Of a stretch of DNA of 40,008 nt, positions 2,490-37,874 are shown piece by piece. The notes beneath the pieces are model-generated. The model had not been told where the DNA came from, searched no databases, and was given only the letters and a program-made list of their open reading frames with translations. Position 1 is the stretch's first letter. Every line of letters starts with the position of its first letter. The translations under genes and the position numbers were made by a program. The stretch is from an uncultured Gammaproteobacteria bacterium (GTDB lineage: Bacteria; Patescibacteriota; Patescibacteriia; UBA11705; JABHMO01): assembly GCA_964590105.1 (NCBI GenBank), contig CAZPYM010000004.1, positions 1 through 40,008 of the forward strand. Direction: 5' to 3'.

Positions 2490-2645
2490 AATTTTCAATT
2501 TACAATTTTCGAATTTACAATAAATTTTCAATGAAAAAATTTTCAATTCAGCTCGCGATGCGTTGAAAATTGTCAACTTAACGTCGCCAAAGGTGACCCG
2601 CCTCTGGCGGGAAAATTGCAAAATTGATAATTGTAATTATTGTAT

Positions 2646-2684
2646 TAAAAAGGCCGTCGCAGTGTTTCACTGCGGCGGCCTTTG
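2646..2684. terminator. bidirectional intrinsic terminator between rplA (+) and the RHH cassette (-)
   Basis: 13-bp stem GGCCGTCGCAGTG-TTT-CACTGCGGCGGCC (2652-2680, one G.U pair). AAAAA on the left and TTTG on the right. On the minus strand it is followed by TTTTTAAT. Confidence 0.6.
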
Positions 2685-2688
2685 CTTG

Positions 2689-2907
2689 TCAACGCCTATC
2701 GCGACCAACACATTCTTCTATCTGTTCTTCATCCGTAAGCGGCAGAGTCCCCTCCGGTTGATTATGTTTTACTTCTTCCCCGCGCGCCCACAGGGCCAAA
2801 CGAAGTTCAATGGTCTTTTTTAATGTCCAGCCAGCAGTTTTTGCTTCCGCAGTCAGTATCCTGGCTGTGTCTGCGCTGAGTTCGATTGTTACACGCGTCT
2901 TACTCAT
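2689..2907 (-). CDS. ribbon-helix-helix (CopG/Arc-like) small DNA-binding protein (72 aa)
   Basis: I moved the start to the ATG at 2907, which is preceded by AAAGGAGGCGATTC. N-terminal MSKTRVTIELSADTARILTAEAK has the beta-strand-plus-helix pattern of RHH proteins. Confidence 0.6.
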   Translation of the reverse strand: MSKTRVTIELSADTARILTAEAKTAGWTLKKTIELRLALWARGEEVKHNQPEGTLPLTDEEQIEECVGRDRR

Positions 2908-2924
2908 GAATCGCCTCCTTTGAA

Positions 2925-3239
2925 TCAATCGGCCGGCGCAAAGCCGCCGAGATTGTCATCAACCATTAATTCAAAACAATCCAGACACAAGGCACGGTCA
3001 TTCCCCATCTTGGAATGGATAAAGCGCATAACCTCACGCACAAAGCCGCTGTCCAGCCGCAAATTCACTGCGCCGCGCCGAATCCTAGCCGCTTCAAACG
3101 TCCGATGCAGAATTGAAGAATCTTCTTCCCCGCATTCAGAACACAGGGTTCCGCCCTTTTCTAAGACGTTCAAATAGACTTCCAATCCATTGAATTTTCT
3201 ACCTTCTTCCGTCTGATTAACGATTCTCAGTTTGATCAT
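2925..3239 (-). CDS. hypothetical protein with two CxxC pairs (Zn-ribbon-like), 104 aa
   Basis: ATG preceded by GGGAGGTGATCAG. CSEC and CLDC pairs. Its stop lies 17 nt upstream of the RHH gene start. Confidence 0.5.
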   Translation of the reverse strand: MIKLRIVNQTEEGRKFNGLEVYLNVLEKGGTLCSECGEEDSSILHRTFEAARIRRGAVNLRLDSGFVREVMRFIHSKMGNDRALCLDCFELMVDDNLGGFAPAD

Positions 3240-3340
3240 CTGATCACCTCCCTTTTTGTTGTCAAAATTCCCGATTGATTTACTCTAACACACTCGGAGC
3301 CTCTCGTCAAGCTTATCAACTTCCCGATTAATCTTATATT

Positions 3341-3349
3341 TGGTAAAAT
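3341..3349 (+). promoter_or_regulatory. candidate extended -10 promoter (TGgTAAAAT) for the nucleotide block
   Basis: TGGTAAAAT at 3341-3349, about 75 nt upstream of the ThyA-like ATG. No good -35. Confidence 0.3.
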
Positions 3350-3423
3350 AAACAGGAACGTGGCACCTGCGCCTTTAACACCTTTATCTTCTTTATCCCC
3401 TTATCGCTTCTTTGTCTATCCAC

Positions 3424-4254
3424 ATGACCCAATTTGACTCACAATTCAAAGCCGCTGTTCTGCGCATTATGAATGAAGGCTTTGATGAATACAATGAACG
3501 CACCGGCCACACCTGCAAGGTACTGCCCGGCATTACTTTTGAATTGGACAAGGGCTTTCCTCTTTTAACCTTGCGCAAAATTCCGATTAAACTTTTTGTT
3601 GCCGAACAAATATGGTACATTATGGGAAGCAAAACTCCTGGTGACTTTGTTAATAAATTCACCAAAATCTGGGAAGACTTCACAGAAGAAGACGGCACAG
3701 TGCCGGCGGCTTACGGACACCGCTGGCGGCATGCTTTTGGCCGAGACCAACTTGGTCTCCTGGTTAAACATTTAACGGAAAATCCCGGCTCAAGACACGG
3801 CGTTGTCGTAACCTGGGATCCGCGCGAAGATGGCCTAGGCAATCCCGAAGGCAAAAAAAATGTTCCCTGCCCCTATACCTGGACCGCCAATATTATTGGC
3901 AATAAACTGCACATTCATTCTGTAATCCGCTCCAATGACATGATGCTCGGCTGTCCTCACGACGTAGCTGGATTTGCCCTCCTGCTGGCAATCCTAGCCG
4001 GCAAGCTCGGCGTTAAGCCTGGCAAATTAACTCATACCATTTCCAACGCTCATATTTACGACACGCATTTTCAGCAGGCCTGGGAACTTATTGAGAGAGA
4101 AAACAATCATTCGCCGATTTACTTTGAAGCGCAAGCTGATTATTTTGACCGCGCCGAGACTGGCGACGAAACGCTGGTTGAGGACATTACCAATCTCTTG
4201 CAAAAACAATATAACCCGCTGGAACCGATTAAGGGGATTAAAATAGTGCTTTAA
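3424..4254 (+). CDS. thymidylate synthase (ThyA) family enzyme with Asp at the Asn177-equivalent position (276 aa from ATG 3424; the ORF opens at TTG 3412)
   Basis: Collinear with E. coli ThyA by eye: NERTG, GFPLLTLRK, AYGHRWR, catalytic Cys in VPCPY (3868-3870), and RSNDMMLGCPHDVAGF with Asp at 3961-3963. Confidence 0.85.
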   Translation: MTQFDSQFKAAVLRIMNEGFDEYNERTGHTCKVLPGITFELDKGFPLLTLRKIPIKLFVAEQIWYIMGSKTPGDFVNKFTKIWEDFTEEDGTVPAAYGHRWRHAFGRDQLGLLVKHLTENPGSRHGVVVTWDPREDGLGNPEGKKNVPCPYTWTANIIGNKLHIHSVIRSNDMMLGCPHDVAGFALLLAILAGKLGVKPGKLTHTISNAHIYDTHFQQAWELIERENNHSPIYFEAQADYFDRAETGDETLVEDITNLLQKQYNPLEPIKGIKIVL

Positions 4255-4258
4255 AATT

Positions 4259-4780
4259 ATGAAAGTAATTTTGATGATGGTCATCACCGCCGACGGTTTT
4301 ATCGCCAAGAGCGCCAATCAGCCGTCAATTGAATGGACGTCAAAAGCGGACAAAGGAATTTTTGTTGAACGGACTAAAGCGGCCGGTGTTATTATCATGG
4401 GACTATCCACCTACAAAACCATTGGCAAGCCCTTGCCCGATCGGCTGAACATGATCATGACCTTCAAGCCAGAGAAAGAAATAAGCATCCCCGGTCAATT
4501 AGAATACACAAACAAACCGCCGGACGAACTGCTCGCAGAACTTGAAACTCGCGGATTCAAAGAAGTGATTCTCGGCGGCGGCTCTATGGTCAATTCACTA
4601 TTTTTAAAAACTGGGCTGGTTAATGAATTACAGATCACGATTGAACCGATTTTATTTGGTGGCGGACTCACATTATTCAAGGATTTAGATTTAGATATTA
4701 AACTTGAACTTATAGAAATGAAAAAATTAAATGATAATGTAATTAATCTAAGATACAAAATAATTTCCACCCCACTTTAG
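4259..4780 (+). CDS. RibD C-terminal-domain type dihydrofolate reductase family protein (173 aa)
   Basis: MMVITADGFIAK..., IMGLSTYKTIGKPLPDR and VILGGGSMVNSLF are typical of the RibD_C/DHFR-like family. Positioned 4 nt after the ThyA-like stop. Confidence 0.7.
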   Translation: MKVILMMVITADGFIAKSANQPSIEWTSKADKGIFVERTKAAGVIIMGLSTYKTIGKPLPDRLNMIMTFKPEKEISIPGQLEYTNKPPDELLAELETRGFKEVILGGGSMVNSLFLKTGLVNELQITIEPILFGGGLTLFKDLDLDIKLELIEMKKLNDNVINLRYKIISTPL

Positions 4781-4837
4781 TGGCTCTCCCGCCCCGGCAG
4801 TCGAACTGACTAAAGTCAGGCAGAAATTTATCTCATT

Positions 4838-5518
4838 ATGTCTATCCTCACCAAGAAACAAATTCTGGAACGGCTTAAAAATCAGCAAATTTCATTTTCG
4901 CCCGAATTGGATGAATATCAGCTGTCGCCAAACTCAATCGACCTGCGCGTCGGCTGGAGTTTTTATGTGCCTCACTCCTGGAAAATGAGCGACAAAGGAC
5001 GCGTGGCTGTAAATGCTGATTATTTAAATTATCAAAACACAGAAGAATACCTAAAGTTAATTAAATTAAGCCCTGGTCAATACTTTGAAATTTTACCAAA
5101 AGAATTTATATTAATTTCTACGCTAGAAAAAATCACCTTAAATTGTGGCGACGTTGCCGGCATGTTATTGCCAAGAAGCTCTGCTCTTCGCCGCGGACTG
5201 CAAATTGAAACCGGCATGATCGACTGCCGCTACAATGGCCAGCTAACAATTCCCGTGGTAAACAATTCATATCACATAATAAAGATTTATCCGGGCGAGC
5301 GAATCTGCCAGATGCAACTTTATAAACTTGACGGTGAATTAAACGAAGAAGACGCAAAAAAACACGGTAAGCAGGAGGCCAAATATGTTGGCTCAACTCC
5401 CTATAGTTTAGAAGCTCGACACGACGCCGATGAAGAGATCGACTTATTAAAAGCCGGCAAAATTAATGAATTAAAAGATCAGTTTAGAATACAAACCGAA
5501 GAACAAAAAAATGCTTAG
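4838..5518 (+). CDS. dCTP deaminase/dUTPase-superfamily (Dcd-like) protein with a C-terminal extension (226 aa)
   Basis: Dcd-like N-terminus (ILTKKQILERL, SIDLRVG), PRSSALRRG and GMIDCRYNGQ. The Glu138-equivalent position appears to be Pro (5252-5254). Confidence 0.75.
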   Translation: MSILTKKQILERLKNQQISFSPELDEYQLSPNSIDLRVGWSFYVPHSWKMSDKGRVAVNADYLNYQNTEEYLKLIKLSPGQYFEILPKEFILISTLEKITLNCGDVAGMLLPRSSALRRGLQIETGMIDCRYNGQLTIPVVNNSYHIIKIYPGERICQMQLYKLDGELNEEDAKKHGKQEAKYVGSTPYSLEARHDADEEIDLLKAGKINELKDQFRIQTEEQKNA

Positions 5519-5984
5519 CAGCTATGCCTCTTCCAAACCATATCCCTTCATCCATCCTAATGGAAAAATTTTTTATGTTTCTGAGAAAAACAAGTTCATT
5601 CAAGCGGCTCAGTGTATTGCCGAACGTTCCGGCTGTATCAAACAAGCAACAGGGGCTGTAATTGTTATAAACGACGAAATAGTGGCTTCGGGCAGTAACG
5701 CAGGAATTCGAGTCAAGGTCTGCCCCAGGGTAGAGGAAAAATGTCCGACCGGAACCGGCTACCACCATTGCCGAGAAACCTGCAAACAAGAAGGCCATGC
5801 TGAACAAATGGCTATCAAAGATTTACTGAACAAAAATATTGTTCACTCTGAACCGGCGCTGTATCTCTGGGGGCATTGGTGGTGTTGCGAGCCATGCTGG
5901 GATGCTATGATGACAGCAGGGATTAGAACTGTTTACTTGGTCGAAAAAGCAACAGAACTTTTTGACCTTGACGCTTCAAAATAA
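5511..5984 (+). CDS. dCMP deaminase (cytidine/deoxycytidylate deaminase zinc-binding family), 157 aa
   Basis: HAE zinc/catalytic motif (EGHAEQMAI) and a downstream CCEPC (PCxxC-type) motif. Overlaps the Dcd-like gene by 8 nt. Confidence 0.8.
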   Translation: MLSSYASSKPYPFIHPNGKIFYVSEKNKFIQAAQCIAERSGCIKQATGAVIVINDEIVASGSNAGIRVKVCPRVEEKCPTGTGYHHCRETCKQEGHAEQMAIKDLLNKNIVHSEPALYLWGHWWCCEPCWDAMMTAGIRTVYLVEKATELFDLDASK

Positions 5985-6037
5985 AAAGCCAGTAATAAGT
6001 TAAATAGTGAATCTTGGACTCCCTACTCACCAATCTT

Positions 6038-6613
6038 ATGAACAAAATTCTCGCCCTCGTCGGCATGACCGGCTCGGGAAAAAGCCTGGTCGCCGACTAT
6101 CTGGTTCAAAAAGGCTGGGGTTTTGCCCGCTTCGGCCAAATCGTGCTCGACGAAGTAAAGGCTCGCGGGCTGGAACCGACTGAGGCAAATGAACGACCAA
6201 TCCGCGAACAAATGCGCGCCGAACACGGCATGGCGGCCATGGCTATTTTAAACATCCCAAAATTTAACAAAATTCTACAGGAGAAAGGTCTAGTCGCCGA
6301 CGGACTATATTCATGGTCCGAATATAAAGAATTAAAAAAATATTATGGCGATCGATTATCAGTCATTGCCATATACTCACCGCCCAAATTGCGCTACGAA
6401 AGACTGACCGGTCGCACGCTCAAATCGACTGACAAAGAACTTCGCAATCGCCCGGCAACCGAAGAGCAAGCTCAGGCTCGCGATTTTGCGGAAATTGAAA
6501 ATATTGAAAAAGGCGGACCGATCGCCATGGCTGATTTTACGATTCTGAATATCAAAGGAAAAGATTATGTGTACAAACAGCTTGATAAAATCATCCAGAT
6601 ACTATGCTTTTAG
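6038..6613 (+). CDS. P-loop nucleotide kinase (dephospho-CoA-kinase-like / UPF0200-like), 191 aa
   Basis: Start moved to the ATG at 6038. Walker A LALVGMTGSGKS at the N-terminus. Size and layout fit a small NMP-kinase fold. Substrate unknown. Confidence 0.6.
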   Translation: MNKILALVGMTGSGKSLVADYLVQKGWGFARFGQIVLDEVKARGLEPTEANERPIREQMRAEHGMAAMAILNIPKFNKILQEKGLVADGLYSWSEYKELKKYYGDRLSVIAIYSPPKLRYERLTGRTLKSTDKELRNRPATEEQAQARDFAEIENIEKGGPIAMADFTILNIKGKDYVYKQLDKIIQILCF

Positions 6614-7032
6614 ATATAAAATTAATCGACAAAACTCTTCCCCTGCCAGAATACAAAACCAAAGGCGCGGTCGCCTTTGATCTATATTCGAGAACTGACA
6701 TTGAAATTCCGCCACAAAAACTAATTTTAGTTCCCCTGAATGTAATAATCAAAATACCAAAGGGTTATTTTTTATTAATGGCGGCGCGCAGTTCTCTTCC
6801 TGTCAGAAAAGGCATAATGTCAGCTAATTCAATCGGTATTTTTGATGAAGATTTTTACGGCAAAAATGATGAATGGCGATTTGAAGCCTATAATTTTACT
6901 TATGCTCTGATAAAAATAAGCCGAGGAGAACGCATTGCTCAGGCAATGCTGATAAAATTCGAGCGAGCTGAATTCAATCAGATTGAAATAATAAAAGACA
7001 GTTCGCGAGGAGGCATTGGTTCGACAGGATAA
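6604..7032 (+). CDS. dut: trimeric dUTPase (142 aa)
   Basis: dUTPase motifs GAVAFDL, ARSS, GIFDEDFYG, ERIAQ and C-terminal RGGIGSTG. Confidence 0.9.
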   Translation: MLLDIKLIDKTLPLPEYKTKGAVAFDLYSRTDIEIPPQKLILVPLNVIIKIPKGYFLLMAARSSLPVRKGIMSANSIGIFDEDFYGKNDEWRFEAYNFTYALIKISRGERIAQAMLIKFERAEFNQIEIIKDSSRGGIGSTG

Positions 7033-7040
7033 ATCAATAT

Positions 7041-8030
7041 ATGAATATTCAAATTCAAGGGATGAGACCAAACTTGCTGATTTTTAGATTTGAAAAAATT
7101 TCCAGGCTGGCTTTTATTAAAATCATTACTGAATTCAATATTTTTTCTTATAAAACGCAAAAGCTGTCTGAAAATTATATCGATGCCGCCCTGGAACAAG
7201 ACGAGCTCTATAAATCATTGCTACCGGAGCTTGAAAAGCTAGAAGCCATAACCAAGAAGGAGCATTTTCAAACTCTCGGACAACTGCTTGACGCAGAAAT
7301 CGCTATTTCAGAATTTGCTTTTTCCGGCTTCATAAAAAAATTATCAACAAACAGTTTGCCGGAATTAAACCGACTGGCTGAAAACATTTGTTTGCAAAGA
7401 GGCGTCAGCTGTCCGGCCAGGCAAAACGATACAATTAAAAACTGCCAGGTAAGCGAAACGCCACGACAGCAGGAAATAAAACTCCTTGATGTTGACCGTT
7501 CATTTGAAAACAAAATTCTTTTTTATTATCTGCGCGCCAGTAGCACTGAAAACACTGAAAAAGTACTGGAAAGAGTTGAATTACTGACAATGGAACAAAA
7601 GGAAATTATGTTTCAAAACATTTTCAGCGCCGGAATCAGCACTTGTCTGCCCAAAATTATCCTTGAACACCAATTTTGTTCACTTCAGCTAAGCGACACA
7701 CTGCACAATTTTCAAGCGCTCATGCTTTGCCCGCAAACCCGTTTATTTTTTGAACCTTTTTCTACAAAGCATGGCTACCTAATGCCGGAGTCAATAATTC
7801 CAGCCGGGCAACAAGAGCTCTTTCTGACAACTATGGAAAAAATTAAAAAATACTTTTTGGAAACCGGCAACCAATATATTATTCCGCAAATTTTCAGGCA
7901 AAATGCGCTGGTAAGCTTAAACCTATTGCAATCATTCATAATCAAACGCCAGCAAGCTCAATCAGTTCTCATTAATCAGCTACTCAATCAAATATATCAA
8001 GAGCTTCCGTTTTTAAAAACTCTTAACTGA
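7041..8030 (+). CDS. hypothetical, mostly helical protein (329 aa), unrecognised
   Basis: Long ATG ORF in the same orientation and tightly packed within the nucleotide block. I could identify no motif. It ends with TGA. Confidence 0.5.
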   Translation: MNIQIQGMRPNLLIFRFEKISRLAFIKIITEFNIFSYKTQKLSENYIDAALEQDELYKSLLPELEKLEAITKKEHFQTLGQLLDAEIAISEFAFSGFIKKLSTNSLPELNRLAENICLQRGVSCPARQNDTIKNCQVSETPRQQEIKLLDVDRSFENKILFYYLRASSTENTEKVLERVELLTMEQKEIMFQNIFSAGISTCLPKIILEHQFCSLQLSDTLHNFQALMLCPQTRLFFEPFSTKHGYLMPESIIPAGQQELFLTTMEKIKKYFLETGNQYIIPQIFRQNALVSLNLLQSFIIKRQQAQSVLINQLLNQIYQELPFLKTLN

Positions 8031-8036
8031 TTTACT

Positions 8037-8675
8037 ATGCAAAATTTTCCGGGAAAATTTATTGTGTTTGAAGGCGGCGAAGGCACGGGCAAGACCACAC
8101 AAATAAAACTGCTCGCCGAAAAACTAAAGCAAAACAGCTTCAATGTTTTCCTGACCCGCGAACCGGGCGGCACCAATTGTCCTATTGCTGAAAAAATTCG
8201 TTACATGCTAAAAGATCCGGAAAACAAAAACATGTGCACGGAAACTGAATTATTCCTGTTTCTGGCTTCCCGCGCCCAGCATGTCAAAGGCGTCATCCTG
8301 CCCCATCTGCGCCGGGGAGACGTGGTTATTTCAGATCGATTTTTCGGTTCCACCCTTGCATATCAACATTTTGGCCGCGGACTATTCAACCTGGAAGAAG
8401 TAAAAAAAATCAATGAATTCGCTACCGGCGGCTTGGAACCGGAACTGACAATACTACTGGATATTGACCCCAAGAAAGGCTTAGAAAGAATAAAAGAACA
8501 TATTGCCAGTGATCGACTGGACAGTGAGACATTAGCCTTTCACGAAAAGGTCCGTGCCGGTTACCTAACCCTGGCCAAAATAAAACCAGACTGGCAGGTC
8601 ATCCCGGCCGATTCAACTATTGACGGCGTTCATTTGCGCATTTGGAATAGCGTTTGCGAAGTCTTGGATTTATAA
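8037..8675 (+). CDS. tmk: thymidylate kinase (212 aa)
   Basis: FIVFEGGEGTGKTTQ P-loop, DRF motif (SDRFFGSTLAYQ), and typical Tmk length. Confidence 0.93.
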   Translation: MQNFPGKFIVFEGGEGTGKTTQIKLLAEKLKQNSFNVFLTREPGGTNCPIAEKIRYMLKDPENKNMCTETELFLFLASRAQHVKGVILPHLRRGDVVISDRFFGSTLAYQHFGRGLFNLEEVKKINEFATGGLEPELTILLDIDPKKGLERIKEHIASDRLDSETLAFHEKVRAGYLTLAKIKPDWQVIPADSTIDGVHLRIWNSVCEVLDL

Positions 8676-8691
8676 CCGAAAGGAGGCCTAT

Positions 8692-9318
8692 ATGTTTCGA
8701 CGAGGCTGTATAGAGCTTATTATTGGCGGCATGAGGGTTGGTAAAACAGCCCAAGGGCTGGAAAGATTGAAACAAGAAAGCTTTGCCAAAGGAAGAAAAG
8801 CAATGATTTTCATTCCCCGCGGCTCTGACCGAGAGGTTGAGCTGGACAGTTGAGAAAAAGTAAAAACAAACGGTCGTGCAGTCTGCCGCAGCGGTATTAT
8901 CATTACTGAAACCGTCGAATTTGACAAAAACAATCCACGGGAAATTCTGGCGCACATTACGCCGGATTTGACTACGGCTTTCATTGATGAAGCTCACTTT
9001 TGCTCTGACGAACTGGTGTCAGTGGCCAAAGAACTGGCGGAAAAACATAGACTGCGCGTCATCATTGCTGGCCTTGATCAGACCTTTGAGGAAATTCCAT
9101 TCGGACCAATCCCAAAACTGGCCTGCGAAGCAGACTTTGTCACCAAACTCCAGGCTGTCTGCATGTACTGCGGCGACGCGCCGGCTACCAAAAGCTGGCT
9201 CCATCCAAGGCTGCGCTCGCAAGTCAAAGAAGGGTCTGTCCATGTAGGCGACAAAGACTATTTGTCTGTTTGCCGGCATTGTTTCCGGCTACTGGAGGAG
9301 AATCCTCCGACATGTTAA
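8692..9318 (+). pseudogene. tdk: thymidine kinase interrupted by one in-frame TGA (8851-8853)
   Basis: AAAGGAGG RBS then ATG at 8692. N-terminal part IIGGMRVGKT; C-terminal part FIDEAHF, IIAGLDQTF, and CxxC..CxxC (CMYCG, CRHC). Both parts are in the same frame (8620 and 8968 are both 1 mod 3), and TGA is the only stop between them. Confidence 0.8.
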
Positions 9319-9324
9319 TTTCAA

Positions 9325-9364
9325 AGAGCCCCGTCCCTCGAAAAGGATCGGGCTCTTTTTTTTT
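9325..9364 (+). terminator. intrinsic terminator after tdk
   Basis: AGAGCCCC...GGGGCTCT stem with inner TCC/GGA pairing, followed by nine T. Confidence 0.8.
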
Positions 9365-11106: not shown

Positions 11107-11673
11107 CTAGTAACAGTACCCGTCGTTTGCGCAATAGTACTCGTACGGACAATCATCGTCCGTATAGCACCAGTCGTACTCGTAACAGTAGCCGTCCACT
11201 GCGCAGTATGTGTCTGATGGGCAATCATAGTCTGACTGACAGCCATCTTCGTACACGTAACAGTAACCGTCACTGCCACAGTAGGTATTCACCGGACAAT
11301 CGTAGTCGTCCCAGCACCCGTCGTCAACGACAGTCACGGACACTGTCTTCTCGTGACAGTACCCGTACGAATCGCAATACGTATCGCTAGGGCAATCGTA
11401 GCTAGAGTAGCACCCAAAATCCTCGGCCTCGTAGCAGTAACCATCCGTGGCGCAGTACGTGGCGTAGGAACAGTCACCGTCCGAGTAACAACCGCCGCCA
11501 GAAACGGCGACAGTCGTTCCGCTCGAATACCCGCCAGCCGAATAGCAATAGCCATCGCTGGCGCAATACTCATCTGAATAGCAGTCGTAGTCATCCGAAC
11601 AGGCAGGGTAGCTATCGACAATACACCCCGACAACAGGATAGCCATTACTACCAAAACCAACCAGTATCTCAT
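11107..11673 (-). CDS. secreted lipoprotein made of six 4-Cys modules (188 aa)
   Basis: RBS AGGAGGTGAAAG. Lipobox LLSGC. Six repeats of C-x2-D-x-D-C-x4-Y-C-x2-DGYCY. Confidence 0.75.
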   Translation of the reverse strand: MRYWLVLVVMAILLSGCIVDSYPACSDDYDCYSDEYCASDGYCYSAGGYSSGTTVAVSGGGCYSDGDCSYATYCATDGYCYEAEDFGCYSSYDCPSDTYCDSYGYCHEKTVSVTVVDDGCWDDYDCPVNTYCGSDGYCYVYEDGCQSDYDCPSDTYCAVDGYCYEYDWCYTDDDCPYEYYCANDGYCY

Positions 11674-21939: not shown

Positions 21940-22707
21940 TCACTGCCCCTTGATTATCAACATGTTTTTCCCGCCTTCCAACATTTTAGCCTGCTTTATT
22001 TCATCCTCGTCCTGTTCATCATACGGCCGGTAAATTTCGCCGCTTGTTTTCACTGACAAATCATGATTAGCATTGATTATAACTGAATAATCGTATTTAA
22101 ATCCCTCTCCCCTGCGCGTGCCCACATCATTAGTAATAAATTGTTTTTCTGTATAGCCGCGGATTAAAAGAAAATGATATATCGGACCGGGCTGAGTATA
22201 ATATGGATTGCCAAGCTCTCTGCCGGCCATTGGCATTAAAATCAAATAACCCTGATCAAGCTGATTCTTTATATTTTCAATTGTTATGTTTTGCGTTATT
22301 TCACTTTGCAGACCGAAATATTCATCCGCCATAATCTTCACTTCTGATAATGTAGTGTCAGAATACAAACCAAACTGCTGTTTTTCCCATTCAACCAATT
22401 TTTGGATTTCCTGATCCATTATTTCCGGAGTTAGATTTTCTTTGGCAAAATATTTTGCCGCCAAAATCAATGCCGACTCTTCGCAAGCTTCCTGATATGG
22501 CAGGTCCCAATTGGCCATCGGAGCTTGCGAGGCAAAAAGCACCGGGATATTTACTTGTTCGCTTTTGCCCGGCTTCAACTCTTGCGCAGTCTGCTGAAAA
22601 TCCGCTTTATCCAATTCCATTAATTTATTGCCAATATCAAACAAAGGCGCCGCCGTGCAACCGGTAAGCATTATCATTATAAAAAAACATAGAATTATTC
22701 GCTGCAT
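21940..22707 (-). CDS. lipoprotein with C39-like (papain-fold) peptidase domain (255 aa)
   Basis: Start moved to the ATG at 22707. Lipobox MLTGC. Q...W...EACEESALILAAKYF and later HFLLIRGY...NDVG match the Cys/His pattern of Peptidase_C39-like domains. Confidence 0.65.
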   Translation of the reverse strand: MQRIILCFFIMIMLTGCTAAPLFDIGNKLMELDKADFQQTAQELKPGKSEQVNIPVLFASQAPMANWDLPYQEACEESALILAAKYFAKENLTPEIMDQEIQKLVEWEKQQFGLYSDTTLSEVKIMADEYFGLQSEITQNITIENIKNQLDQGYLILMPMAGRELGNPYYTQPGPIYHFLLIRGYTEKQFITNDVGTRRGEGFKYDYSVIINANHDLSVKTSGEIYRPYDEQDEDEIKQAKMLEGGKNMLIIKGQ

Positions 22708-22817
22708 ATATTCATTGTAGCAGATATTGGGCGAAAATAGCAAAAATTGCCTAAATTTGATGACCAGACGTGTCAGACCTTTCTCGCTTGACTCAAAGAA
22801 CTTATTCGCAGACCAGC

Positions 22818-22846
22818 TTGACAAGTTCTTTGTTTTAATATAAAAT
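22818..22846 (+). promoter_or_regulatory. rpmA promoter (TTGACA, 17 nt, TAAAAT) embedded in an inverted repeat CAAAGAACTT...AAGTTCTTTG
   Basis: -35 at 22818-22823 and -10 at 22841-22846. The 10-nt inverted repeat arms are at 22794-22803 and 22823-22832. Confidence 0.55.
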
Positions 22847-22883
22847 GATAACTAGTTATTATTAGCTAAAAGAATCAAACAAT

Positions 22884-23168
22884 ATGGCACATAAAAAAGC
22901 AGGCGGCAGTACCGCGCTTGGTCGCGATTCAAATGCCCAACGGCTGGGAGTAAAAGTATATTCCGGCCAACAAGTAAAAGCTGGAAGTATTTTGGTCAGA
23001 CAACGAGGGACCAGGATTCACACCGGCAAAAACGTGCTCAAGGGCAAGGACGACACTCTTTTCACGACCGTTGCGGGCATTGTCAAATACAACACCAAAA
23101 AAGTCAAAAATTTTACCGGCCGATTAAAGGCCAGAACCTTTGCCAGCGTGACTGCGGAAAAAAAATAA
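22884..23168 (+). CDS. rpmA: 50S ribosomal protein L27 (94 aa)
   Basis: [24 protein letters not shown] is the canonical L27 N-terminus. Confidence 0.97.
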
Positions 23169-23176
23169 CTTCATAT

Positions 23177-23208
23177 AAAAAAACCTGGCGAATAAGCCTG
23201 GTTTTTTT
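23177..23208. terminator. A-tract/T-tract hairpin after rpmA
   Basis: AAAAAAACCTGGC-GAATAA-GCCTGGTTTTTTT, with one mismatch in the stem. Confidence 0.6.
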
Positions 23209-23230
23209 ATTTTAAATTGATTATAGAATT

Positions 23231-23255
23231 GAAAAAGGCGGAACTTGGTTCCGCC
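23231..23255 (-). terminator. intrinsic terminator after the 724-aa surface protein gene
   Basis: GGCGGAAC-TTG-GTTCCGCC. The minus strand continues with TTTTTC. Confidence 0.75.
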
Positions 23256-23263
23256 CTTATTAT

Positions 23264-25438
23264 TTACTCAGGGAAGCATTCGAAGTCTGTAAACCACACT
23301 TCCCCTTCACCGGCCGAATCTATCAGGCCGGGAATTTTTGTTTCAAACTCATGGTCGCACTGAATCACAGCCTCTGCCGGATCAAAGCACGCCCACTCGT
23401 TTGGATATTTGCAGGCGCAGTTGAAATCAATCCAGGCCGCGCCTCGCTCACATATTTCCCCGATTGTTGAGCTAAAGCTAGCCGCGCCCCCCCCGCTCGC
23501 TTGGCCAGAAGCGCCATACCAGACAAAAGCCTTCATGTCAGAGGGACAAATGACAGTGCAATTAACGCTGTCGCTTTTTTCTGGTTCTTCGTCGCCTTCA
23601 GGCTCATCTATCGGCTCCGGCACAAACTCCGGCTCCGGTTCATTTTCAGGCTCTGGCTCATATTCCGGATCTGGTGCCGGATCTGGTGTCGGATCATCTT
23701 CCGGTTCAATTTGTATTGCGACGCAAGCGCCGGCAAAACAAAGCTTTCCGGAAGGACACAGCTCGCCCTCGTCAATCTGGCCGTCGCAATCGTTGTCAAC
23801 GGCGTCGCAGACTTCGAACGGAACAGATCCGCATTGGCCGCAAGCGTTTTTCACGCCCTCGTCAATCTGACCGTCGCAATCGTTATCAACGGCGTCGCAG
23901 ATTTCAATCGGAACAGCTCCACATTGGCCGCAAGCGTTTTTCACGCCCTCGTCAACCTGGCCGTCGCAATCATTATCAACGCCGTCGCAGATTTCAATCG
24001 GAACAGCTCCACATTGGCCGCAGACGTTTTTCACGCCTTCGTCAATCTGGCCGTCGCAATTATTGTCAACGCCGTCGCAGATTTCCATCTGGCCGGGAAA
24101 AACATTCTGATCGCTATCGTCGCAATCACCGGCGTCCGCTGAAATGCCGTCGCCGTCATTGTCGATTGTCAGCTGAAATCCCTGCCAACCCTGGCCATAC
24201 TCATTGCTAGGGTTAAGGCATTGCTGACTTTGCTCCGTCGTAATCAAACTGCCAATATTCTGCAGGCTGGCATAGAACTGATCCTGTCCCACCAGTGTGA
24301 CCGGCAGCTGATCATAGCCCATCTCGCAAAACAGGTTCCAATTTTCAAACGGCAAAAGTTCGCCATTGTGGACAGCCACGAAAACCGCGCCCGGACCATA
24401 GCCCGGCACGCTAAAGGTCGGCTTTACCAACGTGCCATGACGCACATAGAGCAGGCCGCCACTCGCATACTTGCTGAAATATTTTACTTCCGCTTCTGAA
24501 ACGTTCAGCTGTTTGACCATTCCCTGAATATTCCAGGAATTAAAGCTGACAGCCGATGAAAACTGATAGACAGAGCCGCCGCTCGAACCGAGTGACTGCT
24601 TTTCCATCAGATAATATATTTCCCCCACTTTGAACAGCTCGCGATACGGCTGCCAATTGATTTCGCCGCCGTACGAGTAACATTCAAATTCGCTCTCTGA
24701 AATCTGAATCACTTTTTGCCAGTCAAAGTTATGGGCGTTGAAAACCGCCTCATTGATAATCCAATGCGCCTTGCCATCGATCAAAACATAAATCTTGGCA
24801 TCGCCCGCAACCTGAATCAGCGAACCGTCAGGATGCCAGGAAACCGGCGAAGTGTCTACAAACAAGCTAGCGTAATTGGATGTCTGCCATGAAGCCAAAA
24901 ATTGGTTATGGCTGTAATAATTGTACTCGCCGAGGGTCTTGCCCGGGTCGTGCACAATCACTTCAGTTTCATTCAGGCCGACCAGCAGCATGAAATGTCC
25001 CTGCTTTTGCGGATCCATCTGAATATTGACCGCCACAATGATTGGATTGCCTTTGGACAATTTGTCCGCCAGAAGATCCAGATCGTTTTTGTTTTGCTTG
25101 ACCAACGGGCCCAGCTTGAAATACCCGGCCAGCACATTGGACAAAAGAGCCATGGTCGTGGCATTGCCGTCATAATAATCAGCGCCCGGCTGGGGGCTGA
25201 GATAATTGTTTTCGTAGAGCCAATCAATAACAGCCTTGAGGCCGTCTTCTGTTGGCGCGAAGTCAAGGTAATAGCCGGCCAGCATAAGAGCTGAAGCCGG
25301 ACCGCAGTTCATATTCTGGCTCCAGTCGCCGGGCGGTGACTGAGATTTGAACTGCACATTGTCGAGCTGAATGTCCGCGGCTCTCGCCGGCAGAACAAAG
25401 ACAACTAAACTGCCAAGAATCATTAGCCAGCTTTTCAT
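23264..25438 (-). CDS. large secreted protein: signal peptide, C39-like peptidase domain, central domain, 4x Cys/Asp-rich DNDCDG repeats, Pro/Glu-rich linker, Cys-rich C-terminal domain (724 aa)
   Basis: Start moved to the ATG at 25438, preceded by AAAAGGAGGCAGCG (MKSWLMILGSLVVFVLPARA). NCGPASALMLAGYY and GHFMLLVG..VHDP. Repeats are CDGVDN(D/N)CDGQ(I/V)DEGVKNxCGQCG. Confidence 0.8.
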   Translation of the reverse strand: MKSWLMILGSLVVFVLPARAADIQLDNVQFKSQSPPGDWSQNMNCGPASALMLAGYYLDFAPTEDGLKAVIDWLYENNYLSPQPGADYYDGNATTMALLSNVLAGYFKLGPLVKQNKNDLDLLADKLSKGNPIIVAVNIQMDPQKQGHFMLLVGLNETEVIVHDPGKTLGEYNYYSHNQFLASWQTSNYASLFVDTSPVSWHPDGSLIQVAGDAKIYVLIDGKAHWIINEAVFNAHNFDWQKVIQISESEFECYSYGGEINWQPYRELFKVGEIYYLMEKQSLGSSGGSVYQFSSAVSFNSWNIQGMVKQLNVSEAEVKYFSKYASGGLLYVRHGTLVKPTFSVPGYGPGAVFVAVHNGELLPFENWNLFCEMGYDQLPVTLVGQDQFYASLQNIGSLITTEQSQQCLNPSNEYGQGWQGFQLTIDNDGDGISADAGDCDDSDQNVFPGQMEICDGVDNNCDGQIDEGVKNVCGQCGAVPIEICDGVDNDCDGQVDEGVKNACGQCGAVPIEICDAVDNDCDGQIDEGVKNACGQCGSVPFEVCDAVDNDCDGQIDEGELCPSGKLCFAGACVAIQIEPEDDPTPDPAPDPEYEPEPENEPEPEFVPEPIDEPEGDEEPEKSDSVNCTVICPSDMKAFVWYGASGQASGGGAASFSSTIGEICERGAAWIDFNCACKYPNEWACFDPAEAVIQCDHEFETKIPGLIDSAGEGEVWFTDFECFPE
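23765..24090. repeat. 3.6 tandem copies of a 90-bp (30-codon) near-identical coding repeat
   Basis: Units start at 23765, 23855, 23945 and 24035, with only a few substitutions between units. In frame within the 724-aa gene. Confidence 0.9.
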
Positions 25439-25509
25439 CGCTGCCTCCTTTTGCCGAAACAATCCATCCTTATCGGATGTGTTCCGGCGGCTTTGGGTTT
25501 GCGGTTTTG

Positions 25510-25551
25510 GCACGCAAAGCAGAAGCGCAATTTCGCTTCTGCTTTGCGTGC
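25510..25551. other. 18-bp perfect stem hairpin (GCACGCAAAGCAGAAGCG-CAATTT-CGCTTCTGCTTTGCGTGC) between two minus-strand genes
   Basis: Read directly. There is no U-tract on the minus-strand side; GATGTTTTGTTGTT follows on the plus side. Confidence 0.8.
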
Positions 25552-32730: not shown

Positions 32731-33432
32731 TTATTTTTTCTGCGCCATTACAAACAACCGAGCCGCGCCACGAATTTTTTTTCTTCCATTCAAATCCGAA
32801 CAAAACGATATTGAGCCGAATCCACTACCTTTGGCTAATTTTTGTATTTCTTTCATGGAATATAATCTTTCTATATGTCTTTCGCGAAAGACTTTTCCTT
32901 TATCCGCAATTATTATGTCTGCCTGCCAAAACTTTCCCTTTACCTTATTCACCATAGTAATATTATCTTTTTTGATCACTGGCGGTAATATTTTAAAATT
33001 AGTATTAAAATCAAAAATAAAAAAACCTTCGCTCTCCAAGTGCCCGGAAATATTTTTAAAAAATGCTCCCATTTCGCTCAAAGTCAATAAATAGTTAATG
33101 GAATCAAACGTTGAAACAATTATATTAAACTTCTCTTTTATCCGAAAATCGGCAAACGATCGCGTATAAAAAGCCACGCCCTTATTTCTTTTTTTGGCAA
33201 TTGAAACCATACCCGGCGAGCAATCAAACCCAGAGATAGCCGCGGCCGGAAATTGTTTTTGAAATTCTTTAATAAACAAGCCGGTACCGCAAGCCGCATC
33301 TAATAACTGAATCTTGTTAATTCGCCGTTCAGTAATTATTTTTTTAATAAAAATCACATAATCACGGTAAAAATCGCGATCATAAATTTCGTCATAATGT
33401 CTTGAAAACTTTTGGTAGCAGTTTGCTCTCAT
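32731..33432 (-). CDS. class I SAM-dependent methyltransferase (233 aa)
   Basis: Motif I LLDAACGTGLF, motif post-I GFDCSPGMV, and typical size. Confidence 0.85.
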   Translation of the reverse strand: MRANCYQKFSRHYDEIYDRDFYRDYVIFIKKIITERRINKIQLLDAACGTGLFIKEFQKQFPAAAISGFDCSPGMVSIAKKRNKGVAFYTRSFADFRIKEKFNIIVSTFDSINYLLTLSEMGAFFKNISGHLESEGFFIFDFNTNFKILPPVIKKDNITMVNKVKGKFWQADIIIADKGKVFRERHIERLYSMKEIQKLAKGSGFGSISFCSDLNGRKKIRGAARLFVMAQKK

Positions 33433-33477
33433 AAATATAAATTCCTGGCAATCCGAAAGGCTGCCAGGACGTGAGCG

Positions 33478-37790: not shown

Positions 37791-37800
37791 TTTTGTCCCA

Positions 37801-37869
37801 CTTCTCCCGCCGCCCTTCTCCCGCCGCCCTTCTCCTGTCAATTATTTCATGTTCTATGTTCTATGTTCT
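37801..37869 (+). repeat. 2.7 copies of CTTCTCCCGCCGCC (37801-37839) followed by three perfect ATGTTCT heptamers (37849-37869)
   Basis: Read directly, just downstream of the RAYT stop. Confidence 0.85.
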
Positions 37870-37874
37870 ATATT

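What the first reader, a model, noticed from the sequence alone, without database searches (positions are those of the whole stretch)
3341..9318. Nine co-directional pyrimidine dNTP genes mirror the T-even phage nucleotide toolkit and sit where rplJ-rplL is expected
The genes are tightly packed, with gaps of 4 to 57 nt or overlaps:
- ThyA-like with the Asp signature
- DHFR-like
- Dcd/dUTPase-superfamily protein
- dCMP deaminase
- stand-alone P-loop nucleotide kinase
- Dut
- unknown 329-aa protein
- Tmk
- Tdk

Function for function, this matches the phage T4 set: gp42 dCMP hydroxymethylase, frd, gp56 dCTPase/dUTPase, cd, gp1 dNMP kinase, td and tk.

The ordinary reading is a complete dTTP supply regulon: dCTP to dUTP to dUMP to dTMP to dTDP, plus salvage. 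The unusual reading is a chromosomal pathway for a C5-modified deoxycytidylate with its own kinase.

The block begins right after rplK-rplA. In most bacteria that operon continues with rplJ-rplL-rpoB-rpoC, none of which is in this window.
Basis: partly seen in the sequence, partly recalled or inferred. Interest (0 to 1): 0.75.

Follow-up and report, generated by a model that had tools for sequence, protein, structure and literature searches.

The report
CPR thymidylate operon with cytosine-type synthase
This is an inherited housekeeping operon for making the DNA building block dTTP in ultra-small (CPR/Patescibacteria) bacteria, but its thymidylate-synthase gene carries the active-site signature of a phage enzyme that methylates dCMP rather than dUMP, so these bacteria may make thymidine by methylating cytosine nucleotides and then deaminating them.

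Summary
The nine co-directional genes exist at 3412-9318: TS homologue, DHFR, Dcd-like, dCMP-type deaminase, P-loop kinase, Dut, an orphan of 329 aa, Tmk and Tdk. Tdk has one in-frame TGA. The organism is a CPR/Patescibacteria bacterium.

The block is not an insertion. The same order between secE-nusG-rplK-rplA and gatB occurs in Kuenen- and Falkowbacteria. In 80 CPR species genomes the TS lies within 7 kb of the deaminase in 72, DHFR in 55, the Dcd-like gene in 49 and nusG-rplK in about 30. None has rplL nearby.

The TS is neither canonical ThyA (L143/H147/N177) nor T4 gp42-like (D143/T147/D177). It has N143/P147/D177 in 77 of 80 CPR genomes. That is the signature of phage Xp12's enzyme, which is shown experimentally to convert dCMP to 5-methyl-dCMP. 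Identity is 39% to Xp12, 26% to E. coli ThyA and 25% to gp42.

The "dCTP deaminase" never has the catalytic Glu (Pro instead). Fusions link the deaminase to a D-type TS, a pyrophosphatase to a D-type TS, and the Dcd-like protein to the deaminase.

Best reading (about 0.5): dTMP is made from dCMP via 5-methyl-dCMP, as in Xp12, with DHFR recycling folate. Main rival (about 0.3): the ordinary dUMP route. All of this is inferred from sequence. I found no paper describing it.

The parts
3313..3340 (+). sigma-70-like promoter candidate (TTATCA-16-TATATT) upstream of the block
   Evidence: Consensus scan. Weak evidence: 19 sites were found against 12.6 +/- 3.9 in shuffles.
3412..4254 (+). Thymidylate-synthase-family enzyme with the cytosine-type signature N143/C146/P147/D169/D177 (E. 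coli numbering). Predicted dCMP C5-methyltransferase (5-methyl-dCMP synthase). Probable start is the ATG at 3424.
   Evidence: PF00303, E 6e-49. Signature mapped. 39% identity to Xp12 TS, against 26% to E. coli ThyA and 25% to T4 gp42. NJ tree.
4259..4780 (+). Dihydrofolate reductase of the RibD_C-like type, starting 4 nt after the TS stop
   Evidence: Pfam RibD_C 5.6e-18 and DHFR_1 2.5e-10. 28% identity, E 8e-10, to the Xp12 DHFR. The 91%-identical AXL1 homologue of the Xp12 DHFR is a proven DHFR (PMC9206674).
4838..5518 (+). Dcd/dUTPase-superfamily protein. The catalytic Glu of dCTP deaminase is replaced by Pro; the dUTPase-type Asp and Tyr are kept. Predicted (d)CTP or dUTP pyrophosphatase, not a deaminase.
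   Evidence: TIGR02274 101 bits. Alignments to Dcd structures. The position is Pro in 112, Ser in 5, Ala in 1 and never Glu among 118 CPR homologues, and Pro in 47 of 49 GTDB loci.
5511..5984 (+). Zinc-dependent dCMP/ComEB-type deaminase (HAE ... CxxC, with a Cys-rich insert and a 'GHWWCCEPCW' motif). Predicted to deaminate 5-methyl-dC nucleotides to dT nucleotides.
   Evidence: PF00383. Best PDB match is the S. mutans dCMP deaminase 2hvv. Lies within 7 kb of the TS in 72 of 80 CPR genomes. Fusions P0140 and P0328.
6014..6613 (+). P-loop nucleotide kinase of the UPF0200/SSO1041 family, homologous to the kinase-like domain of anti-phage dCTP deaminases. Substrate unknown.
   Evidence: PDB 3lw7/3h0k, E 6e-13. 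NF041025 and PRK08356. PADLOC PDLC02373, E 2.8e-11. No CoaE hit. Near the TS in 12 of 80 genomes.
6604..7032 (+). Trimeric dUTPase (Dut)
   Evidence: PF00692 8e-20. TIGR00576 92.8 bits. Near the TS in 26 of 80 genomes.
7041..8030 (+). Fast-evolving orphan protein of 329 aa, predicted mostly helical, function unknown
   Evidence: No family hit. Only itself found in the 5.8-billion-protein search. 35% identity to the positional orthologue in L001 and 21% in L003. AlphaFold2 single-sequence pLDDT 37.7.
8037..8675 (+). Thymidylate kinase (Tmk)
   Evidence: PF02223 3.7e-47. TIGR00041 175.5 bits, above the cut-off.
8692..9318 (+). Thymidine kinase (Tdk), interrupted by one in-frame TGA at 8851-8853
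   Evidence: PF00265 6.4e-25. The stop codon is shown. It aligns to Gly (GGA) in L001.
9337..9352 (+). Terminator-like hairpin followed by a T-run, 19 nt after the Tdk stop
   Evidence: Consensus scan. Weak evidence.

Best explanation
**What it is (shown).** The block is a vertically inherited housekeeping operon of a CPR/Patescibacteria bacterium. It supplies dTTP and keeps the pyrimidine dNTP pool clean.

**How it most likely works (inferred from sequence).** The thymidylate-synthase homologue is not a dUMP methylase. It belongs to the cytosine-specific clade with Asn143/Pro147/Asp177, the clade of phage Xp12's dCMP methyltransferase. The proposed steps are:
1. dCMP is supplied. One possible source is hydrolysis of dCTP by the Dcd-like protein. 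That protein has lost the deaminase Glu but keeps the dUTPase-type Asp.
2. The TS homologue reductively methylates dCMP to 5-methyl-dCMP with methylene-THF, releasing dihydrofolate.
3. The adjacent DHFR regenerates THF.
4. The adjacent zinc deaminase converts the 5-methyl-dC nucleotide into the dT nucleotide. This happens either at the monophosphate level, or after phosphorylation, possibly by the UPF0200-type kinase.
5. Tmk makes dTDP. Tdk adds salvage. Dut removes dUTP.

This is the 'Xp12-type' thymidylate route, here used by a cell for ordinary T rather than by a phage for fully 5mC-substituted DNA.

**What is shown and what is inferred.** Shown: gene identities, conservation and synteny, the active-site signatures, and the gene fusions. 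Inferred: every substrate and the order of the steps.
For: **Vertical inheritance**
- The same order, secE-nusG-rplK-rplA-[small ORFs]-TS-DHFR-DcdL-deaminase-kinase-(Dut)-unknown-Tmk-Tdk-gatB, occurs in Kuenenbacteria and Falkowbacteria.
- Variants occur in Doudnabacteria and a Hainich groundwater CPR.
- At least 160 GTDB species genomes carry the TS, and all 80 listed are MAGs labelled CPR/Patescibacteria or carrying uninformative or evidently wrong labels.
- Counts within 7 kb of the TS: deaminase 72/80, DHFR 55/80, DcdL 49/80, nusG-rplK about 30/80.
- TS homologues are 55-86% identical across CPR.

**TS type**
- N/P/D at positions 143/147/177 in 77 of 80 genomes. Asp177 with the PCP motif occurs in 118 of 120 close homologues.
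- About 100 of the 150 nearest cluster representatives (50% identity) are Asp-type. Canonical L/H/N proteins appear only below about 132 bits.
- BLAST: 154 bits and 39% to Xp12 TS, 97 bits and 26% to E. coli ThyA, 58 bits and 25% to T4 gp42.
- The NJ tree puts the CPR clade inside the Asp-type clade with Xp12, Donnerlittchen and Mallos, apart from canonical ThyA.

**Published rules**
- Positions 177 and 147 are the two residues most associated with cytosine modification (PMC8670742).
- N177D switches TS from dUMP to dCMP (references).
- An acidic residue at 143 marks hydroxymethylases, and D169N marks 5-hydroxylases (PMC13326640). Neither applies here.
- The Xp12 TS was shown to make 5mdC. Five of seven metavirome TS genes linked to deaminases did the same (bioRxiv 10.1101/2024.12.05.627091).
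- In that study TS-deaminase co-location marked modified-cytosine contigs: 70% against 6%. The neighbouring deaminases convert 5mC nucleotides to T.
- A paper by Kuo et al. [quoted passage not shown]

**Other support**
- DHFR next to the TS fits a reductive methylation, which makes DHF, rather than a hydroxymethylation. It resembles the Xp12 DHFR.
- The Dcd-like protein never has the deaminase Glu.
- Gene fusions:
  - deaminase::Asp-type TS (P0140), encoded next to a Pro-type Dcd-like gene;
  - PRA-PH pyrophosphatase::Asp-type TS (P0160);
  - Dcd-like::deaminase (P0328).
Against: - No biochemistry exists for any CPR member. Every substrate assignment rests on signatures and on homology of 39% or less.
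- Gene adjacency and the fusions fit the canonical order (dCMP to dUMP to dTMP) equally well.
- The CPR deaminase is not detectably related to the Xp12 deaminase beyond the family motifs.
- The operon carries a bona fide Dut, which also makes dUMP, the canonical TS substrate.
- TIGR03284 (thymidylate synthase equivalog) is just passed: 109.8 against a cut-off of 108.35.
- I could not test whether these genomes lack an Asn-type ThyA or a ThyX elsewhere.
- The dUTPase-type Asp of the Dcd-like protein is Asn in about 5% of members, so its pyrophosphatase role is uncertain.
- The NJ tree has no support values.
Confidence: 0.5

Rival explanations
1. Ordinary thymidylate pathway. The deaminase makes dUMP from dCMP, and Dut and perhaps the Dcd-like protein make dUMP from dUTP. 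The TS homologue methylates dUMP to dTMP despite carrying Asp177/Pro147. DHFR, Tmk and Tdk play their textbook roles.
For: - The protein is probably the 'thyA' of these genomes. It is annotated as thymidylate synthase everywhere and just passes TIGR03284.
- Dut is in the operon.
- TS with dCMP deaminase and DHFR is also the canonical Gram-positive and eukaryotic route (established knowledge). Adjacency and fusions therefore fit it equally well.
- The CPR-wide purifying selection (55-86% identity) fits an essential dTMP synthase.
Against: - The two positions that best separate uracil-type from cytosine-type enzymes (177 and 147; PMC8670742) are both of the cytosine type in 77 of 80 genomes.
- N177D and N229D mutations convert TS into dCMP methylases (references).
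- Every characterised natural Asp177 enzyme uses a cytosine nucleotide: T4 gp42, MilA, Xp12 TS, RB69 gp48.
- The protein is closer to Xp12 TS than to any canonical ThyA.
Confidence: 0.3
2. Pre-replicative DNA modification of the bacterial chromosome. The TS homologue makes 5-methyl-dCMP (or 5-hydroxymethyl-dCMP). The operon kinase and cellular kinases raise it to the triphosphate. It then partly or wholly replaces C in CPR DNA, as in phages Xp12 and T4.
For: - The cytosine-type TS signature and the affinity to Xp12.
- A dedicated P-loop kinase next to the deaminase.
- A Dcd-like protein that could deplete dCTP.
- Short-read metagenomics would not reveal 5mC (established knowledge).
Against: - The kinase is near the TS in only 12 of 80 genomes, while the deaminase is near it in 72 of 80. 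This points to removal of the methylated cytosine, not its use.
- There is no acidic residue at 143, so 5hm is unlikely.
- No glucosyltransferase or other modification genes are in the window.
- Cells need dTTP, and no other TS is seen here.
- Global 5mC replacement is known only from viruses.
- No paper reporting it for CPR was found.
Confidence: 0.08
3. A phage-derived or horizontally acquired island (a T-even-like nucleotide toolkit) that inserted after rplA and displaced rplJ-rplL.
For: - The spacer between rplA and the TS holds small, variable - strand ORFs.
- The TS clade also contains phage enzymes.
Against: - The block and its linkage to nusG-rplK and gatB are conserved across CPR classes.
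- GC content is like the surroundings.
- Hits of the Dcd-like protein, deaminase and DHFR to phages are weak, 28-35% identity.
- There are no integrase, tRNA or repeat boundaries.
- No rplL is near the TS in any of 80 genomes.
Confidence: 0.03
4. An anti-phage nucleotide-depletion system: the kinase and deaminase act as a split version of the DcdV-type anti-phage dCTP deaminase.
For: The kinase matches the kinase-like region of anti-phage dCTP deaminase models (NF041025; PADLOC PDLC02373, E 2.8e-11).
Against: - The deaminase gives no PADLOC hit and only a weak partial match to NF041025 (E 3.4e-4, 19.6 bits against a cut-off of 400).
- The context is core housekeeping and conserved across a superphylum.
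- The kinase is dispensable in most genomes (12 of 80).
Confidence: 0.02

Closest known systems
Phage Xp12 / PaMx74 (Bradleyvirinae) module: NTP pyrophosphohydrolase, TS homologue (dCMP to 5-methyl-dCMP), dCMP-family deaminase (5mC to T), DHFR
   Same: - The TS shares the N143/C146/P147/D169/D177 signature and 37-40% identity.
- The TS sits with a deaminase and a RibD_C-like DHFR.
- A dNTP pyrophosphatase function is plausibly present.
- In the phage, thymidine is made by deaminating methylated cytosine nucleotides.
   Different: - Here the module is chromosomal, vertically inherited across a bacterial superphylum, and linked to ribosomal-protein and gatB genes.
- Its presumed purpose is ordinary dTTP supply, not full 5mC substitution.
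- The deaminase is not closely related to the Xp12 one.
- The pyrophosphatase candidate is a Dcd/dUTPase-fold protein instead of a MazG/PRA-PH or HAD enzyme.
- Dut, Tmk, Tdk and a UPF0200 kinase are added.
Phage T4 pyrimidine toolkit (gp42, frd, gp56, cd, gp1, td, tk)
   Same: The list of activities is broadly parallel. Asp177 is shared with gp42.
   Different: - gp42 is only 25% identical (58 bits) and has D143/T147, the hydroxymethylase type.
- There is no BLAST similarity between the Dcd-like protein and gp56.
- The kinase is not gp1-like.
- There is one TS homologue here instead of two.
- There are no glucosyltransferases.
Canonical bacterial ThyA-FolA with dCMP deaminase or Dcd/Dut
   Same: Same folds, same cofactor logic (TS with DHFR), and the same end product, dTMP to dTDP by Tmk.
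   Different: - Canonical ThyA has L143/H147/N177; this one has N/P/D.
- Canonical Dcd has the catalytic Glu; here it is Pro.
- NCBIfam ThyA equivalog models NF002495-NF002499 are missed by a wide margin, for example 134 against 327 bits.
Anti-phage dCTP deaminase (DcdV-type: P-loop kinase-like domain fused to a dCMP-family deaminase)
   Same: The operon kinase is homologous to its kinase-like domain and sits next to a dCMP-family deaminase.
   Different: The genes are separate and in the opposite order, sit in a housekeeping context, and the deaminase does not match the defence models.

Membership tests
Canonical thymidylate synthase ThyA (dUMP to dTMP, EC 2.1.1.45) | TS fold with the catalytic Cys146, and Glu58, Tyr94, Arg166, Asp169, His207, Tyr209 | tested here: met
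   PF00303, E 6e-49. All ten mapped columns are conserved except 143, 147 and 177.
Canonical thymidylate synthase ThyA (dUMP to dTMP, EC 2.1.1.45) | Asn177 (reads O4/N3-H of uracil), with His147 and Leu143 | tested here: not met
   Asp177, Pro147 and Asn143 in the window protein and in 77 of 80 CPR genomes.
Canonical thymidylate synthase ThyA (dUMP to dTMP, EC 2.1.1.45) | Score above the curated equivalog cut-offs | tested here: inconclusive
   TIGR03284 109.8 against 108.35, a bare pass. NF002497 134 against 327 and the other models fail.
Xp12-type dCMP C5-methyltransferase (5-methyl-dCMP synthase, TS superfamily) | Asp at 177 with a non-His residue at 147, Asp169 retained, and no acidic residue at 143 | tested here: met
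   The N143/P147/D169/D177 signature is identical to Xp12, Donnerlittchen and Mallos. The rules come from PMC8670742 and PMC13326640.
Xp12-type dCMP C5-methyltransferase (5-methyl-dCMP synthase, TS superfamily) | Closer in sequence to verified members than to canonical ThyA or to hydroxymethylases | tested here: met
   154 bits to Xp12, against 97 to E. coli ThyA and 58 to gp42. The NJ tree agrees.
Xp12-type dCMP C5-methyltransferase (5-methyl-dCMP synthase, TS superfamily) | Genomic association with a dCMP-family deaminase and a DHFR | tested here: met
   Deaminase within 7 kb in 72 of 80 genomes and DHFR in 55 of 80.
Xp12-type dCMP C5-methyltransferase (5-methyl-dCMP synthase, TS superfamily) | Enzymatic conversion of dCMP to 5-methyl-dCMP with DHF release | not testable with these tools
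   Needs expression and LC-MS or a 340-nm assay.
T4 gp42-type dCMP hydroxymethylase | Asp177 together with an acidic residue at position 143 that admits water | tested here: not met
   Asp177 is present, but position 143 is Asn, whereas gp42 has Asp. The rule is from PMC13326640.
T4 gp42-type dCMP hydroxymethylase | Sequence affinity to gp42 | tested here: not met
   25% identity, 58 bits. gp42 is the most distant sequence in the tree.
dCTP deaminase (Dcd) or bifunctional Dcd-Dut | Dcd fold and family score | tested here: met
   PF22769 1.7e-25. TIGR02274 101.4 against 92.8.
dCTP deaminase (Dcd) or bifunctional Dcd-Dut | Catalytic Glu (E138 in E. coli, in the motif '..L/TLE(L/F)..N') | tested here: not met
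   Pro in the window protein. Pro in 112, Ser in 5, Ala in 1 and Glu in 0 among 118 homologues.
T4 gp1-type dNMP kinase | Full-length match to the family | tested here: not met
   phrog_139 matches only residues 4-40, the P-loop, at E 7.5e-5. The best structural relatives are SSO1041/UPF0200.
Dephospho-CoA kinase (CoaE) | Match to the CoaE family | tested here: not met
   No CoaE hit in Pfam or NCBIfam at E <= 0.01.

The most novel reading that the evidence does not exclude
Many CPR/Patescibacteria do not only pass through 5-methyl-dCMP on the way to dTMP. They also feed 5-methyl-dCTP into replication, so part or all of the cytosine in their chromosomes is 5mC installed before replication. That state is so far known only from viruses. 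The Dcd-like protein and the UPF0200 kinase would set the dCTP to 5-methyl-dCTP ratio.
Probability: 0.08. Interest if true: 0.92.

Novelty: new variant of a known kind. Interest (0 to 1): 0.66.

Why it matters
- **If the inference holds,** a large share of bacterial diversity (Paceibacteria, Kuenen-, Falkow-, Uhr-, Nomura-, Doudnabacteria and others) makes thymidylate by a route known only from a few phages: methylating dCMP and then deaminating it. The universal dUMP to dTMP step would be bypassed.
- **Consequences.**
  - The 'thyA' and 'dCTP deaminase' annotations of thousands of CPR genomes would need changing.
  - The origin of the phage 5mC pathway could be traced to, or shared with, a cellular lineage.
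  - Minimal cells would have a thymidylate route that does not depend on dUMP as the TS substrate, which could reduce uracil in DNA. This point is speculative.
  - A new pool of candidate 5mC-acting deaminases and dCMP methylases would be available for methylome-sequencing tools.
- **It is directly testable** with an assay that already exists: co-express the TS with T4 gp1 in E. coli and analyse plasmid DNA by LC-MS.
- **If the ordinary reading is right instead,** the Asn177 rule for uracil specificity has a superphylum-wide natural exception. That matters for predicting DNA modifications from metagenomes.

Tried and rejected
1. **TGA recoding (code 4 or 25) as the explanation of the Tdk stop.** Rejected. 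TGA ends 5 of 41 genes, and the other genes are intact under table 11.
2. **T4 gp42-like hydroxymethylase.** Rejected on residue 143 and on sequence distance.
3. **5-hydroxy-dCMP synthase.** Rejected because Asp169 is retained.
4. **Homology of the Dcd-like protein to T4 gp56.** No BLAST similarity.
5. **Halovirus Dcd hits as a second example of the module.** Rejected. HRTV-21 has a ThyX and a Glu-type Dcd.
6. **Structure of the orphan gene 7.**
   - The single-sequence model had pLDDT 37.7 and was unusable, so no fold search was run.
   - The homology search found only the protein itself.
7. **Rfam and tRNA scans of the window.** Nothing found.
8. **Literature searches for a CPR or cellular Asp-type TS, or a 5-methyl-dCMP route in cells.** Nothing found. 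The library lacks most subscription journals.
9. **Whether these genomes also hold an Asn-type ThyA or a ThyX.** Could not be tested.
10. **Names for the nearest non-CPR cluster representatives.** None available.

Full report
**1. The observation**

The window encodes nine + strand genes from 3412 to 9318 (ORF list). Pfam, NCBIfam and PHROGs confirm the families:
- thymidylate-synthase homologue, 3412-4254;
- RibD_C-type DHFR, 4259-4780;
- Dcd/dUTPase-superfamily protein, 4838-5518;
- zinc deaminase of the dCMP/ComEB type, 5511-5984;
- P-loop kinase, 6014-6613;
- Dut, 6604-7032;
- protein of 329 aa with no family, 7041-8030;
- Tmk, 8037-8675;
- Tdk, 8692-9318.

Three corrections are needed.
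- Tdk has an in-frame TGA at 8851-8853. It aligns to a GGA Gly codon in the closest orthologue. TGA ends 5 of 41 genes in the window. This is therefore a nonsense mutation or a sequence error, not recoding.
- About 920 nt with two small - strand ORFs separate rplA from the block.
- The TS probably starts at the ATG at 3424, because orthologues are 276 aa.

A promoter-like site (3313-3340) and a terminator-like hairpin (9337-9352) bracket the block. The scan is barely above shuffled sequence.

No rplL, rpoB or rpoC is in the window.

**2. Organism and inheritance**

The closest TS homologues are 65-86% identical. Where they are named, they come from Patescibacteria/CPR: Kuenen-, Falkow-, Uhr- and Doudnabacteria.

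The full order is secE-nusG-rplK-rplA-[small - strand ORFs]-TS-DHFR-DcdL-deaminase-kinase-(Dut)-unknown-Tmk-Tdk-gatB. It recurs in a Kuenenbacteria contig and, with a fused Tmk-Tdk and no Dut, in Falkowbacteria. Doudnabacteria and a Hainich groundwater CPR show rearranged versions.

A scan of one genome per GTDB species found 160 genomes with the gene. All 80 loci kept are CPR MAGs. I called ORFs in these 80 loci and searched them with the window's proteins. Within 7 kb of the TS I found:

| Gene | Genomes (of 80) |
|---|---|
| deaminase | 72 |
| DHFR | 55 |
| Dcd-like | 49 |
| GatB | 31 |
| RplK | 31 |
| NusG | 29 |
| Tmk | 27 |
| Dut | 26 |
| RplA | 18 |
| kinase | 12 |
| Tdk | 4 |
| gene 7 | 3 |

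No locus has an RplL homologue.

So the nine-gene layout is specific to the Kuenen/Falkow group. The core is TS plus deaminase, usually with DHFR and the Dcd-like gene. That core and its linkage to nusG-rplK are old and vertical. The block did not displace rplJ-rplL recently. GC content does not stand out from the surroundings. Phage hits to the Dcd-like protein, the deaminase and DHFR are weak, at 28-35% identity.

**3. The thymidylate-synthase homologue**

I mapped the protein onto E. coli ThyA numbering. It keeps Glu58, Tyr94, Cys146, Arg166, Asp169, His207 and Tyr209. At positions 143, 147 and 177 it has Asn, Pro and Asp, where ThyA has Leu, His and Asn.

Conservation of this signature:
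- Asp177 with the PCP motif is present in 118 of 120 close homologues.
- The full N/P/D signature is present in 77 of 80 GTDB loci.
- An exhaustive HMMER search of 1.84 billion cluster representatives returned about 100 Asp177 proteins among the best 150, mostly N/P/D. Canonical L/H/N proteins appear only from about 132 bits downward.

The best phage matches are Bradleyvirinae siphoviruses at 35-41% identity. Their TS genes carry the same 'NVPCP ... P(Y)DV' motifs. Each sits in a pyrophosphohydrolase-TS-deaminase-DHFR cassette.

Xp12 belongs to this subfamily (genus Bosavirus in its GenBank record; placed in Pamexvirus in PMC9206674). Its TS is 39% identical to the window protein (154 bits). 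By comparison, E. coli ThyA gives 26% and 97 bits, and T4 gp42 gives 25% and 58 bits.

An NJ tree, without support values, places the CPR clade inside the Asp-type clade with Xp12. Canonical ThyA forms a separate clade and gp42 is the outgroup.

**4. What the literature says about these residues**

- Positions 177 and 147 are the two residues most differentially conserved between cytosine-modified and unmodified viral contigs. N177D converts TS into a dCMP methylase (PMC8670742).
- A bulky hydrophobic residue at 143 is thought to exclude water, giving a methyl product. Asp or Glu at 143 marks hydroxymethylases (T4 gp42, MilA). D169N marks 5-hydroxy-dCMP synthases (PMC13326640).
- The Xp12 TS makes 5mdC in an in vivo assay, and so did five of seven TS genes linked to deaminases. 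TS-deaminase co-location was found in 70% of modified contigs and 6% of unmodified ones. The neighbouring deaminases prefer 5mC nucleotides and are proposed to supply dT nucleotides (bioRxiv 10.1101/2024.12.05.627091).

The window protein has Asn143, as Xp12 does, and keeps Asp169. It is followed 4 nt later by a DHFR that resembles the Xp12 DHFR (E 8e-10). The AXL1 homologue of that phage DHFR is a proven DHFR (PMC9206674). A DHFR partner is expected for a reductive methylation, which makes DHF. It is not expected for a hydroxymethylation.

**5. The other genes**

*Dcd-like protein.* It scores as dCTP deaminase (TIGR02274, 101 against 92.8). In alignments to Dcd structures the catalytic Glu aligns to Pro. 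Among 118 CPR homologues that position is Pro in 112, Ser in 5, Ala in 1 and never Glu. The Asp that is catalytic in dUTPases is kept in 110. The annotation 'dCTP deaminase' is therefore probably wrong. A dNTP pyrophosphatase acting on dCTP, dUTP or 5-methyl-dCTP is the most economical guess. That function is inferred only.

*Deaminase.* It has the HAE and CxxC zinc motifs and a Cys-rich insert like the ComEB/dCMP deaminases. Its best PDB match is 2hvv. It shows no specific similarity to the Xp12 deaminase.

*Kinase.* It resembles Sulfolobus SSO1041 (UPF0200; E 6e-13). It also matches the kinase-like domain of anti-phage dCTP deaminases. It is not CoaE and not gp1-like.

*Gene 7.* It is an orphan that evolves fast. 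Its positional orthologue is 35% identical, while the neighbouring TS is 86% identical. Its structure could not be predicted.

*Gene fusions elsewhere tie the functions together.*
- P0140 is deaminase::Asp-type TS. It lies next to a Pro-type Dcd-like gene on a probably viral contig.
- P0160 is PRA-PH pyrophosphatase::Asp-type TS.
- P0328 is Dcd-like::CPR-type deaminase.

**6. Explanation**

*Shown:* a conserved, vertically inherited CPR operon of pyrimidine deoxynucleotide enzymes, with a TS of the cytosine type and a Dcd-like protein without the deaminase Glu.

*Inferred (confidence about 0.5):*
1. dCMP is methylated to 5-methyl-dCMP.
2. DHF is recycled by DHFR.
3. The deaminase turns the methylated cytosine nucleotide into the thymine nucleotide.
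4. Tmk continues to dTDP.
5. Tdk adds salvage and Dut sanitises the pool.
6. The Dcd-like protein may supply dCMP or remove an unwanted triphosphate.

*Main rival (about 0.3):* the textbook order, dCMP to dUMP to dTMP. Gene context fits this equally well. Only the active-site signature and the affinity to Xp12 argue against it.

*Other rivals:*
- Literal DNA modification of the chromosome, about 0.08.
- A phage island, about 0.03.
- A defence system, about 0.02.

**7. Comparison with known systems, and novelty**

The block works most like the Xp12/PaMx74 cassette, not like the T4 toolkit. It meets every sequence-testable criterion of the Xp12-type dCMP methyltransferase family. It fails the Asn177/His147/Leu143 criterion of canonical ThyA. 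It also fails the acidic-143 criterion of gp42-type hydroxymethylases. The enzymatic criterion could not be tested.

I found no paper describing an Asp-type TS or a 5-methyl-dCMP route in CPR or in any other cell. CPR papers treat the gene as ordinary thyA.

I therefore rate the finding a new variant of a known kind: a phage-type pathway used as chromosomal housekeeping across a bacterial superphylum. The rating depends on biochemical confirmation.

The key untested point is whether these genomes hold another TS, either an Asn-type ThyA or a ThyX.

Noticed in passing
window 8851-8853: A single in-frame TGA splits the thymidine kinase gene. The orthologous codon in the closest relative is GGA (Gly). 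TGA is otherwise a normal stop here, so Tdk may be a fresh pseudogene or the site may be an assembly error.
   Followed up: yes
window 2490-3411 (ORFs 2689-2928 and 2925-3239, - strand): The spacer between rplA and the operon holds two small overlapping - strand ORFs. One is ribbon-helix-helix/TraY-like (weak, E 0.005). The other has a weak DUF7685 match. Relatives have one to five different small - strand ORFs in the same slot (L001, L003). It looks like a variable hot spot, possibly for toxin-antitoxin-like genes.
   Followed up: partly
window 4838-5518 and homologues P0276-P0395: The whole CPR family annotated 'dCTP deaminase' lacks the catalytic Glu (Pro instead). This is probably a superphylum-wide misannotation. 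One non-CPR-looking contig (L011, probably viral) has the same Pro-type protein next to a deaminase::TS fusion.
   Followed up: yes
window 7041-8030: Gene 7 evolves far faster than its neighbours: 35% identity to its positional orthologue, against 86% for the TS. It has no detectable relatives beyond Kuenen- and Falkowbacteria.
   Followed up: partly
window 11107-11673 (- strand): A protein of 188 aa built of Cys/Tyr/Asp-rich repeats ('DGYCY', 'SDTYC'), with a hydrophobic N-terminus (possible signal peptide) and a weak DUF7107 match. It lies between gatB and miaA.
   Followed up: no
window 21940-25513 (- strand): Two adjacent proteins with C39-like peptidase domains. The larger (749 aa) also carries MopE-type metal-binding motifs and acidic repeats. 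They lie in a segment with GC about 0.50, against about 0.40 nearby.
   Followed up: no
window 32731-34866 (- strand): A radical SAM/SPASM enzyme next to a class I methyltransferase, in the lowest-GC part of the window (0.33-0.38). This may be a peptide-maturation cluster.
   Followed up: no
window 37167-39938: A weak IS200-like Y1 transposase fragment, followed by a GC-rich (about 0.50) stretch whose long ORFs have no Pfam match.
   Followed up: no
L003/L004 14881-16125: In Falkowbacteria, Tmk and Tdk are fused into one protein of 414 aa, and the operon has no Dut.
   Followed up: partly
L012 8001-9401 (P0122): The second-closest TS cluster representative (49% identity, N/P/D type) carries an extra N-terminal domain of about 190 aa with no Pfam match.
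   Followed up: no
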